Below are positions 9,882-11,594 of a stretch of 64,000 nucleotides of DNA, in pieces; the first letter of the stretch is position 1, and each line of letters begins with the position of its first letter. The stretch is taken from IMG/VR virus record IMGVR_UViG_3300036791_001056, positions 32,001 through 96,000 of that record. One strand, given 5' to 3'. A program made the translations under genes and the position numbers. The notes beneath the pieces are model-generated. The model did not search any database. It had not been told where the DNA came from and worked only from the letters and a program-made list of their open reading frames with translations. The DNA is from a virus.

Positions 9882-9902
9882 CATCCGCCGTGAGGCGGGT
9901 CG
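9882..9902 (+). promoter_or_regulatory. candidate Ro60-binding operator hairpin in the Ro60 mRNA leader
   Basis: C-ATCCGCC-GTGA-GGCGGGT-(C)-G, 7 nt before SD-like GGGAGA. Confidence 0.55.
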
Positions 9903-9923
9903 ATCTGATGGGAGATGATCGTC

Positions 9924-11594
9924 ATGACGAGTCGTGACGCGCTCGCCGGGTTCAACCCGGCAGTCACGCCGCAGACCCAGCCAGCTCCGGGACGCACCGA
10001 CATGGTGAAGGGACCTGCTGGCGGGTACGGCTTCCAGAAGGACCGGTGGAACCAGCTCGAGGACTTCTTGATTCTCGGGACCACCGGCGGCAGCTACTAC
10101 CTCGGCCAGGACCAGCTGACTCAGCAGAACGTGAGCGTGGTCATCGAGCTAGCCAAGTCGCACGGTGCGCAGCTCGTGCAGCTCGTGGTTGAAATTTCAA
10201 CCTCAGTCCCACCGCGCGCTCCGAAGAACCGGGGATGCCTGTACGCGCTGGCTGCCGCATCAGCGTTCGGTGACCCAGCTGCTGTGCAGGCCGTCAAGGC
10301 GGCGCTGCCTCAAGTCGCGCGGACCACCGATCACCTGGCTGCGTTCTTCGGCTACCGCAAGCTGCTGAAGAGCAAGACCACCGCGCGTGGGACGTCACCG
10401 GTCGCTGGTCGCGCCTACCGCTCGGCGCTCGCTGCGTGGTTCACGGCGAGCGACGTCAATGACGTCGCGTTCCGGGCCTGCAAGGCCCGCCAGCGGAAGA
10501 CTCCGGCCGGCGAGGCGTTCGACCTGCGGGACGCGATCCGCATGGCGCACCCGGCGAGCGACACGCCCGAGCGGCAGCTGCTCTTCCGGTGGCTGGCCGG
10601 CAAGGCCGATGACGCAGAGGCAGCGCGGGTGCTGCCGGCGGTTGACAACTTCATCACGGCGCAGGCCGTGAAGACTCCGGCTGAGGCGATCCGCGTGGTT
10701 ACCGACCGGCGCGTTCCCTGGGAGTTCTTGCCCTCCGCTGTCCTCGCAGACAGGGGGGTGTGGGAGGCGCTCACCGAGACCATCGGCGTGACAGCGCTGA
10801 TCCGGAACCTGGCGCGAATGACCCGCATCGGGACTCTCGCTCCATTCGCCGCGGCCAACGTTACGGTGATCCGGCGGCTCACCAGCGCAGAGGCACTGGC
10901 GAGGGGGCGCATTCACCCGATGGACGTGTACCTCGCGCTGCGGGTCTACGCGGCCGGCACTAGCCAGCCGAATCCCAAGGCTGAGCGCTCCACCTGGACT
11001 CCGGTCCCGGAGATCCTCGATGCGCTCGAGGTCGCGTACGACCTCAGCCACGGCCACGTGCAGCCGTCAGGTAAGAAGTTCGTCCTCGCGGTAGACTCAT
11101 CAGGCTCGATGACGTATGGCCACGTGTCATTCACCGGTGCTAACCTGGGTCAGGCATATCACGTCGCATCAGCCATCGCTACGATGATTAAGCGCATTGA
11201 AGGCGCGAACGTCCACGTCGTTGATGTAGACACGGCAGTCCGGAACTCACGGATCACCCCACGCACCAACCTGCGCGAGATCTCATCGTGGCGAGCTAGT
11301 GGCGGAGGCACTGACCTCTCGCTGCCCATGACGTACGCGATGCAGTACGATCTCCGGGTCGACGGCTTCGCGCTGCTCACGGACAACGCGACGTGGGCCG
11401 GGCACATTCACCCATTCCAGGCGCTCGAGCAGTACCGCCAGCGGTACAACCCCGGCGCGCGGTTCGTGGACATCAGCATGGTGCCTTCCGGGTTCAGCGT
11501 CGCTGATCCCAAGCATGAGGGCGTGATCAACATGACCGGGATGGACGCGTCACTGCCCGTGGCGCTGGCCGGGTACCTCCGTGCTGCGGGGTGA
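9924..11594 (+). CDS. rsr: Ro60/TROVE-domain RNA-binding protein (Rsr-like)
   Basis: AGGYGF, FLILGTTGGSYY, VPWEFLP, ALIRNLARMT, RIHPMDV; vWA MIDAS DSSGSM, GGGTD, LLTDN. Confidence 0.95.
   Translation: MTSRDALAGFNPAVTPQTQPAPGRTDMVKGPAGGYGFQKDRWNQLEDFLILGTTGGSYYLGQDQLTQQNVSVVIELAKSHGAQLVQLVVEISTSVPPRAPKNRGCLYALAAASAFGDPAAVQAVKAALPQVARTTDHLAAFFGYRKLLKSKTTARGTSPVAGRAYRSALAAWFTASDVNDVAFRACKARQRKTPAGEAFDLRDAIRMAHPASDTPERQLLFRWLAGKADDAEAARVLPAVDNFITAQAVKTPAEAIRVVTDRRVPWEFLPSAVLADRGVWEALTETIGVTALIRNLARMTRIGTLAPFAAANVTVIRRLTSAEALARGRIHPMDVYLALRVYAAGTSQPNPKAERSTWTPVPEILDALEVAYDLSHGHVQPSGKKFVLAVDSSGSMTYGHVSFTGANLGQAYHVASAIATMIKRIEGANVHVVDVDTAVRNSRITPRTNLREISSWRASGGGTDLSLPMTYAMQYDLRVDGFALLTDNATWAGHIHPFQALEQYRQRYNPGARFVDISMVPSGFSVADPKHEGVINMTGMDASLPVALAGYLRAAG

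What the first reader, a model, noticed from the sequence alone, without database searches (positions are those of the whole stretch)
9882..9926. Y-RNA-mimic hairpin beside the Ro60 ribosome-binding site: candidate autoregulatory operator
Seen: CATCCGCC-GTGA-GGCGGGTCG contains both strands of the conserved Y helix (CATCC and GGGT-C-G) in reversed order, closed by a GNRA loop. It lies 7 nt before GGGAGA and the ATG at 9924. Inference: free Ro60 binds its own mRNA leader and blocks initiation, matching protein supply to Y RNA supply, as ribosomal-protein operators do.
Basis: inference. Interest (0 to 1): 0.8.

Follow-up and report, generated by a model that had tools for sequence, protein, structure and literature searches.

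The report
Ro60-site hairpin before phage Ro60 gene
Just before the ribosome-binding site of a phage gene for the RNA-binding protein Ro60 lies a small hairpin that copies, with its strands swapped, the stem that Ro60 is thought to grip on its partner Y RNAs. The same hairpin sits in the same place before about three quarters of related Ro60 genes, so Ro60 probably limits its own synthesis through it, although no binding has been shown.

Summary
CATCCGCC-GTGA-GGCGGGT[C]G (9882-9902) forms an 8-bp hairpin with bulged C9901. It ends 7 nt before GGGAG and 21 nt before the Ro60 start at 9924. The eight Y RNAs upstream (8882-9861) carry the same helix in the opposite strand order.

In one window the motif is only mildly unusual. 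The comparative evidence is strong:
- A script finds the hairpin in 100 of 131 related rsr leaders, against about 1-4% in controls.
- A covariance model places it in the leader of about 60 of 80 Streptosporangiales species loci.
- It is the only significant hit in the 147-kb phage genome.
- It is the top genome-wide hit in two 10-14 Mb bacterial genomes.
- Spacing to the start codon is tight (median 17 nt).
- The inner stem and loop vary while pairing is kept.
- Six of six sampled Streptomyces phages have a variant hairpin at the ribosome-binding site with no Y RNA immediately upstream.

The GNRA loop is not conserved.

Best reading: a Ro60-binding operator giving feedback control, most likely translational repression. 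Binding and repression are untested. I found no Rfam family and no paper describing it. Earlier follow-ups of this scan reported the same arrangement on other DNA.

The parts
9882..9889 (+). 5' arm of the hairpin, CATCCGCC. It has the sequence of the 3' strand of the Y-RNA Ro-binding helix.
   Evidence: Sequence. Columns ATCCGC are at least 90% conserved in 85 distinct leaders.
9890..9893 (+). Apical loop GTGA. It is GNRA here but not conserved.
   Evidence: loops differ in length (about 3-12 nt) and sequence among relatives.
9894..9903 (+). 3' arm GGCGGGT[C]GA with bulged C9901. It has the sequence of the 5' strand of the Y-RNA Ro-binding helix and resembles the GNCGAA motif; here it reads GTCGAT.
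   Evidence: four invariant columns (window G9897, G9899, G9902, A9903), with T9900 and C9901 at least 90% conserved; 98.5% of cells paired.
9910..9914 (+). Shine-Dalgarno GGGAG of the Ro60 gene, 7 nt after the hairpin and 9 nt before the ATG.
   Evidence: In relatives the Shine-Dalgarno core starts 2-10 nt (mode 4) after GGGTCGA.
9924..11594 (+). Ro60/Rsr gene (TROVE plus vWA, 556 aa).
   Evidence: Pfam TROVE hit. PDB 2nvo Rsr E=1.8e-71 and 1yvp Xenopus Ro E=2.8e-62. Start chosen by N-terminal alignment.
8882..9861 (+). Array of eight Y-RNA-like units (Y1 8882-8955, Y2 8967-9038, Y3 9048-9126, Y4 9141-9205, Y5 9265-9386, Y6 about 9390-9545 (variant), Y7 9562-9683, Y8 9707-9861). These are the presumed competing ligands.
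   Evidence: Terminal stems found by script. Eight of the 17 GGGTCGA copies in the window lie on the + strand at 8886-9897. Sub-threshold Rfam YrlA hits at 9724-9842 (41.6 bits) and 9429-9545.

Best explanation
The hairpin is a conserved RNA element in the 5' leader of the Ro60 (rsr) mRNA. It reproduces the Ro60-binding bulged helix of the phage's own Y RNAs as a stand-alone stem-loop. In a Y RNA the two RNA ends meet at the base of this helix; here a loop closes that side, and the mRNA leaves from the side where a Y RNA carries its effector module.

Proposed mechanism (inferred): free Ro60 binds this site. Because the helix ends 2-10 nt before the Shine-Dalgarno, the 60-kDa ring hinders 30S binding and lowers Ro60 synthesis. 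Y RNAs carry the same site and lie directly upstream on the same strand, with no promoter-like or terminator-like site found between them and the gene. They would draw Ro60 away from the leader, so protein output would follow the supply of unoccupied Y RNA.

Shown here: the element exists, it acts at the RNA level on the sense strand, it is conserved and specific to rsr leaders, and its spacing is constrained. Inferred: Ro60 binding, the sign of the effect, and competition by Y RNAs.
For: 1. Prevalence. A script detects the hairpin in 100 of 131 rsr leaders. Controls give 4 of 521 windows inside the ORF, 5 of 131 reverse complements and 8 of 655 shuffles.
2. Covariance model R1 scores at least 24.9 bits in the leader of about 60 of 80 GTDB species loci (Nonomuraea, Actinomadura, Streptosporangium, Sphaerisporangium and others) and about 37 of 52 metagenome or viral loci that include the leader. 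All hits are on the sense strand. These loci supplied the training set, so the informative part is that each locus has one high hit, at the leader.
3. Specificity. It is the only significant hit in the 147-kb phage genome (25.7 bits, E 1.7e-4). It is the best genome-wide hit in two bacterial genomes of 10-14 Mb, each with a single rsr gene. The other hits of 24-29 bits were an enolase ORF, an inter-Y junction, and a truncated rsr remnant that keeps its leader.
4. Sequence conservation. Both arms are at least 90% conserved and four columns are invariant, while the loop and flanks vary.
5. Covariation. The inner stems of phage relatives covary: GCC/GGC, GCTCAGC/GCTGAGC, GCTAG/CTGGC, ATCGT/GCGAT.
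6. RNA level. The conserved U-G pair (84 of 85) and the bulged C make sense only in RNA of the sense strand.
7. Spacing. From the end of GGGTCGA to the start codon the median is 17 nt and the interquartile range 16-19.
8. Independent lineage. Six of six sampled Streptomyces phages (Ro60 about 33% identical) have TGCC(C/T)-loop-GGGC[C]G abutting or overlapping the Shine-Dalgarno. The five annotated records have a protein gene directly upstream; Naboo has no annotation. In Comrade, the only one searched in detail, the nearest Y-like RNAs lie about 700 nt upstream.
9. Shared lineage variants. L005 has GAGTCGA/CATTC and L062 has GGGTTGA in both the Y RNAs and the hairpin.
10. Literature. Ro60 mainly contacts the strand that is best conserved here, and only that strand is conserved among bacterial Y RNAs (10.1101/312249; PMC4201824).
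11. The gene product is a genuine Ro60.
Against: No binding or expression data exist for any of these leaders. In this window the motif reads GTCGAT rather than GTCGAA, the model score (25.7 bits) is lower than in bacteria (33-41 bits), and the hairpin's in-context pair probability is 0.54. About a quarter of related loci lack the hairpin. Mycobacteriophage ET08 and Gordonia phages BearBQ, BlueNGold and GMA2 show none that is convincing, so the element is not universal. In several loci the core of the hairpin differs from that of the local Y RNAs, for example GGGCCGA against GGGTCGA. The hairpin does not itself sequester the Shine-Dalgarno, so repression would have to be steric. Ro60 has not been shown to accept a helix whose terminal side is closed by a loop. 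Compensatory changes within the conserved 8 pairs are few (6 cells), because the sequence is nearly invariant and the set was chosen for pairing.
Confidence: 0.5

Rival explanations
1. A Ro60-bound 5' cap or processing boundary. The Y array and rsr would be made as one precursor. After the last Y RNA is cut out, the hairpin with Ro60 on it would protect the new 5' end of the rsr mRNA from RNase J or RNase E. Ro60 would then stabilise its own message (positive or neutral feedback) instead of repressing it.
For: M. smegmatis Y RNAs upstream of rsr are processed from a single precursor (PMC4201824, section read). No promoter-like or terminator-like site lies between Y8 and the ORF. The hairpin begins 20 nt after the end of Y8. 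Actinobacteria have a 5'-to-3' exonuclease (general knowledge).
Against: A plain stabiliser would need neither the exact Ro-site sequence nor a fixed 2-10 nt distance to the Shine-Dalgarno. In the annotated Streptomyces phage records the hairpin sits directly after a protein gene, not after a Y RNA. The two roles do not exclude each other.
Confidence: 0.2
2. A cargo-less mini Y RNA or a relic of a Y-array junction. Every junction in a Y array places CATCC ahead of GGGTCGA. Here the spacer would have shrunk to a loop. The product could be a small Ro60-bound RNA or nothing at all, with no effect on rsr translation.
For: The model also hits inter-Y junctions with 37-70 nt inserts at 15-24 bits in the window and in most loci. 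This gives an obvious evolutionary origin.
Against: A neutral relic would not stay nearly invariant across about 100 species-level loci while the loop and flanks drift. It would not keep its distance to the Shine-Dalgarno. It would not recur in Streptomyces phages that have a protein gene directly upstream instead of a Y RNA.
Confidence: 0.1
3. A protein-independent element: an intrinsic terminator or attenuator for the Y array, or a DNA inverted repeat bound by a transcription factor.
For: The stem is GC-rich and lies at the end of a non-coding RNA array.
Against: There is no U tract and the terminator scan found none. The conserved U-G pairs, the bulged C and the strand-specific hits argue against a DNA palindrome. 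The sequence, and not only the structure, is conserved and matches the Y helix.
Confidence: 0.04

Closest known systems
Ro60-binding helix of bacterial and phage Y RNAs (YrlA/YrlB type; Chen et al. 2014, PMC4201824; Rfam RF02553)
   Same: The same bulged helix and the same conserved strand (GGGTCGA(A), compare GNCGAAN0-1G). It lies next to rsr on the same strand and is the presumed Ro60 docking site.
   Different: The strand order is swapped, so it is a local hairpin and not a stem formed by the two RNA ends. There is no tRNA-like or other effector module. It is part of an mRNA leader, ending 7 nt before the Shine-Dalgarno. It does not match the Rfam YrlA model.
thrS operator of E. coli, where threonyl-tRNA synthetase binds a tRNA anticodon-arm mimic just upstream of the Shine-Dalgarno of its own mRNA (from my own knowledge)
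   Same: A hairpin that mimics the protein's normal RNA ligand sits immediately 5' of the ribosome-binding site. The proposed mechanism is steric competition with the 30S subunit, relieved by the true ligand.
   Different: The protein family and the ligand are different, and nothing has been tested experimentally here.
Ribosomal-protein and phage translational operators (L1, S8, L20, MS2 coat, T4 RegA/gp32; from my own knowledge)
   Same: Autogenous control through an mRNA site that resembles the protein's primary RNA target.
   Different: Those operators often include or sequester the Shine-Dalgarno or the start codon. This one lies just upstream and leaves the Shine-Dalgarno unpaired.

Membership tests
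Y RNA (YrlA-type) | Conserved Ro60-binding strand GNCGAAN0-1G within a bulged helix | tested here: met
   The window has GGGT[C]GAT, matching 5 of the 6 positions of GNCGAA. Most relatives have GGGTCGAA.
Y RNA (YrlA-type) | [quoted passage not shown] CATCC 3') | tested here: not met
   The order here is CATCC ... GGGTCGA, closed by a 4-nt loop. The upstream Y units have the canonical order.
Y RNA (YrlA-type) | An effector module (tRNA-like T, D and acceptor arms, or a large internal loop) | tested here: not met
   The element is only 21 nt long. There is no Rfam YrlA hit over 9878-9906.
Y RNA (YrlA-type) | Bound and stabilised by Ro60/Rsr | not testable with these tools
   This needs EMSA, RIP or similar.
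Autogenous translational operator (ligand mimicry) | The mRNA site resembles the protein's normal RNA ligand | tested here: met
   Both arms are identical or near-identical to the helix of the local Y RNAs. Two lineage variants are shared by the Y RNAs and the hairpin, although several loci are mismatched.
Autogenous translational operator (ligand mimicry) | The site lies within or abuts the ribosome-binding region of the protein's own mRNA | tested here: met
   It ends 7 nt before the Shine-Dalgarno and 21 nt before the AUG. In 100 loci the median distance to the start is 17 nt.
Autogenous translational operator (ligand mimicry) | The protein binds the site and lowers translation, and the ligand relieves this | not testable with these tools
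   No binding or reporter data.
Any curated Rfam family | Match to a covariance model | tested here: not met
   cmscan of 8800-10100 at E up to 10 gives only a spurious Pseudomon-groES hit (16 bits, E=4) over the hairpin.
Intrinsic terminator | GC-rich stem followed by a U tract | tested here: not met
   The tail is GAUCUGAUGGG, and the scan found 0 terminator-like sites in 8700-10100.

The most novel reading that the evidence does not exclude
Ro60 homeostasis in many bacteria and phages is set by a circularly permuted Y-RNA docking helix in the rsr leader. Free Ro60 represses its own translation and Y RNAs act as anti-repressors. The level of this ancient autoantigen-type protein would then be tied directly to the pool of unoccupied Y RNA. 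The element would also be a minimal natural Ro60-binding hairpin of 21-30 nt, useful as a tag or probe.
Probability: 0.45. Interest if true: 0.7.

Novelty: new member of a known kind. Interest (0 to 1): 0.6.

Why it matters
How cells and phages balance Ro60 against its Y RNAs is not known. Y RNAs depend on Ro60 for stability, and free Ro60 has activities that Y RNAs gate. A conserved Ro-site in the rsr leader gives a concrete and easily tested feedback circuit. It also defines a minimal natural Ro60-binding hairpin. Finally, it shows that the docking helix can work outside a Y RNA, which widens the search for Ro60 targets among mRNAs. I found no description of it in four literature searches or in Rfam.

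Tried and rejected
**Searches that gave little**
- A single-protein scan of viral contigs found no close relative.
- blastn against phages found only a 100-nt match to phage Phabba.
- Two paper searches failed on syntax, and one genome search failed on the 'of' argument.

**Ideas tested and dropped**
- The 3' arm might pair with a CATCC after the ORF, making the whole mRNA a giant Y loop. Only 13 of 100 loci have [CT]ATCCG within 300 nt of the stop codon, and I ran no background control for that motif.
- A wider Ro60 regulon. The genome-wide extra hits were an enolase ORF, an inter-Y junction and a truncated rsr remnant.
- A terminator.
- A conserved GNRA loop.

**Survey limit**
A class-wide TROVE survey found the domain in 24 of 301 Actinomycetes genomes. 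Most of these belong to a divergent TROVE subfamily (25-30% identity) with a different upstream motif, so they could not be scored for this hairpin.

Full report
**Setting.** The window is part of a 146,953-bp IMG/VR phage record. It carries about 33 tRNA genes at 1000-8900. An array of Y-RNA-like units follows, and then a Ro60/Rsr gene at 9924-11594. The Ro60 assignment rests on a Pfam TROVE hit and on matches to PDB 2nvo (D. radiodurans Rsr, E=1.8e-71) and 1yvp (Xenopus Ro60, E=2.8e-62). Rfam's YrlA model gives sub-threshold hits at 9724-9842 (41.6 bits) and 9429-9545. A script that pairs each GGGTCGA with a downstream CATC(C/T) delimits the units: Y1 8882-8955, Y2 8967-9038, Y3 9048-9126, Y4 9141-9205, Y5 9265-9386, a variant Y6, Y7 9562-9683 and Y8 9707-9861. 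Eight of the 17 GGGTCGA copies in the 64-kb window lie on the + strand between 8886 and 9897.

**The observation.** CATCCGCC (9882-9889), GTGA, and GGCGGGT[C]G (9894-9902) give eight pairs with C9901 bulged. Seven nt follow before GGGAG (9910-9914), and the ATG is at 9924. That ATG, not the in-frame one at 9915, aligns with the N-termini of homologues. Folded alone, the full Y-like helix is part of the minimum-energy structure. With 40 nt of context on each side its pair probability is 0.54, against a median of 0.99 in relatives. The Y units have the helix as 5' GGGTCGA ... CATCC 3', so the strand order in the hairpin really is swapped. Within this one window the pattern is only mildly unusual: 1 match against 0.2 expected, and 17 of 100 shuffles reach one match.

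**Comparative evidence.** The closest Ro60 proteins are on metagenomic, phage-like contigs (75%, 67% and 64% identity). Next come Nonomuraea, Actinomadura and Streptosporangium at 55-60%. The three closest contigs all have CATCC/TATCT ... GGGTCG(A/C) just before the Shine-Dalgarno and ATG, each with a different inner stem and loop.

I collected 54 metagenome loci, 11 viral loci and 80 GTDB species loci. A script finds the hairpin within 55 nt of the start in 100 of 131 loci that have a readable leader. The same script gives 4 of 521 on windows inside the ORF, 5 of 131 on reverse complements and 8 of 655 on shuffles.

In an alignment of 85 distinct hairpins, both arms are at least 90% conserved and four columns of the GGGTCGA arm are invariant. 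The loop and flanks are variable. 98.5% of cells pair. The U-G pair is present in 84 of 85 sequences, and the bulged C is nearly invariant. This points to an RNA element on the sense strand. Compensatory changes inside the eight core pairs are few, because the sequence hardly varies and the set was selected for pairing. The extensions beyond the core covary freely: GCC/GGC, GCCG/CGGC, GCTCAGC/GCTGAGC, GCTAG/CTGGC, ATCGT/GCGAT and GTGGTCGC/GTGACCGC.

**Specificity.** I built a covariance model from that alignment (R1).
- In the phage's own 147-kb genome the only significant hit is the rsr leader (25.7 bits, E 1.7e-4).
- Across the loci, the leader scores at least 24.9 bits in about 60 of 80 GTDB species loci and about 37 of 52 metagenome or viral loci that contain the leader. 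Inter-Y junctions, which have the same motifs around 37-70 nt inserts, score 15-24 bits.
- In whole bacterial genomes of 10-14 Mb, each with a single rsr gene, the leader is the best hit genome-wide in two genomes and second in a third.
- The other hits of 24-29 bits were an enolase coding region, a truncated rsr remnant that keeps its leader and first six codons, and an inter-Y junction. I see no sign of a wider regulon.

**Position.** The distance from the end of GGGTCGA to the start codon has a median of 17 nt and an interquartile range of 16-19. The Shine-Dalgarno core begins 2-10 nt (mode 4) after the motif. No promoter-like or terminator-like site separates Y8 from the ORF.

**A second lineage.** In Streptomyces phages the Ro60 is about 33% identical. 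Six of six sampled phages from different genera carry TGCC(C/T)-loop-GGGC[C]G(A/G)(A/T) abutting or overlapping the Shine-Dalgarno: CeilingFan, Comrade, Mildred21, Coruscant, Naboo and, by sequence, their relatives. The five annotated records have a protein gene directly upstream of the hairpin; Naboo has no annotation. I looked for Y-like RNAs in detail only in Comrade, where they lie about 700 nt upstream and use GGGTCGGA/TATCCG. One actinobacterial genome (L185, 38-41% identity) has the same variant. Mycobacteriophage ET08 and Gordonia phages BearBQ, BlueNGold and GMA2 show no convincing copy.

**Co-variation with the Y RNAs.** This result is mixed. Two lineage-specific variants are shared by the Y RNAs and the hairpin (L005 GAGTCGA/CATTC; L062 GGGTTGA). 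Several loci are mismatched.

**Interpretation.** Published work states that Ro60 mainly contacts the 5' strand of the Y helix and that only this strand is conserved among bacterial Y RNAs (bioRxiv 10.1101/312249; PMC4201824, motif GNCGAAN0-1G). That strand is the invariant 3' arm of the leader hairpin. The simplest reading is that Ro60 binds its own leader. Given the short, fixed distance to the Shine-Dalgarno, binding would hinder the 30S subunit, much as ThrRS does at the thrS operator (my own knowledge). Y RNAs lie directly upstream on the same strand, with no promoter-like or terminator-like site found between them and the gene. M. smegmatis Y RNAs are processed from one precursor (PMC4201824). 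Y RNAs would compete with the leader for Ro60. Binding, the sign of the effect and competition are all inference.

**Rivals.**
- The main rival is that Ro60 on the hairpin protects the processed 5' end of the mRNA. That role is compatible with repression.
- A neutral relic of a Y junction explains the origin of the hairpin, but not its conservation, its spacing, or its presence in Streptomyces phages that have a protein gene directly upstream.
- The terminator and DNA-operator readings fail on the missing U tract, on the strand-specific hits, and on the conserved G-U pairs and bulge.

**Novelty.** No Rfam family covers the hairpin. Four full-text searches found no description of Ro60 or Rsr autoregulation. 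Chen et al. 2014 describe the Y RNAs next to rsr, including in Streptosporangium roseum and mycobacteriophages, but do not mention a leader hairpin. Earlier follow-ups of this scan reported the same arrangement in other phages, cyanobacteria, an actinomycete and Bacillus. These are unchecked AI notes and I do not count them as evidence. I file the element as a new member of a known kind, the ligand-mimic autogenous operator, with function unproven.

Noticed in passing
window 9192-9277 and 9663-9722: Junctions between neighbouring Y units (the CATCC of one unit and the GGGTCGA of the next, 37-63 nt apart) also match the hairpin model at 16-17 bits. In a precursor transcript, adjacent Y RNAs could therefore mispair with each other.
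   Followed up: partly
window 9920-9939: An 8-bp hairpin, CGUCAUGA-CGAG-UCGUGACG, contains the Ro60 start codon in its stem (centroid structure). A weaker analogue (GATCA/TGATC) exists in L067. It was not seen in the bacterial loci.
   Followed up: partly
window 9894-9903 with 9940-9947: The 3' arm GGCGGGTCGA could instead pair with codons 6-8 of the ORF (CGCTCGCC, 8 bp), enclosing the Shine-Dalgarno and AUG in a loop in the canonical Y order. This is probably chance in GC-rich codons. I did not test it across loci.
   Followed up: no
L180 (G003:C1:7079288-7079420): A Spirillospora genome carries a second, truncated copy of the unit: the Y 3' strand, the hairpin, the Shine-Dalgarno and the first six rsr codons (ATGGCCCGTGATCCGCTC), and then unrelated sequence.
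   Followed up: partly
L186-L207 (Actinomycetes genomes): A divergent TROVE subfamily (25-30% identical, N-termini MSKF or MARF) lies next to tRNA-like D-arm sequences. Upstream it has a different recurrent motif (...CCGAC...GATCTCGGGCAC...), which may mark its own partner RNAs and leader element.
   Followed up: no
L161/L163 (Streptomyces phage Comrade, record 68530-68790): Two Y-like RNAs (CGGGTCGGA ... TATCCG, one with a tRNA-like module) lie about 700 nt upstream of the Ro60 gene. Two annotated small CDSs lie in between. The Y RNAs are not annotated in the record.
   Followed up: partly
L158 (mycobacteriophage ET08, about 45 nt before the Ro60 start): CATGTT-CAC-AACCGAA resembles a decayed copy of that phage's own Y helix (ATGTC/GGCCGA). 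It has only 4 weak pairs and lies far from the Shine-Dalgarno.
   Followed up: partly
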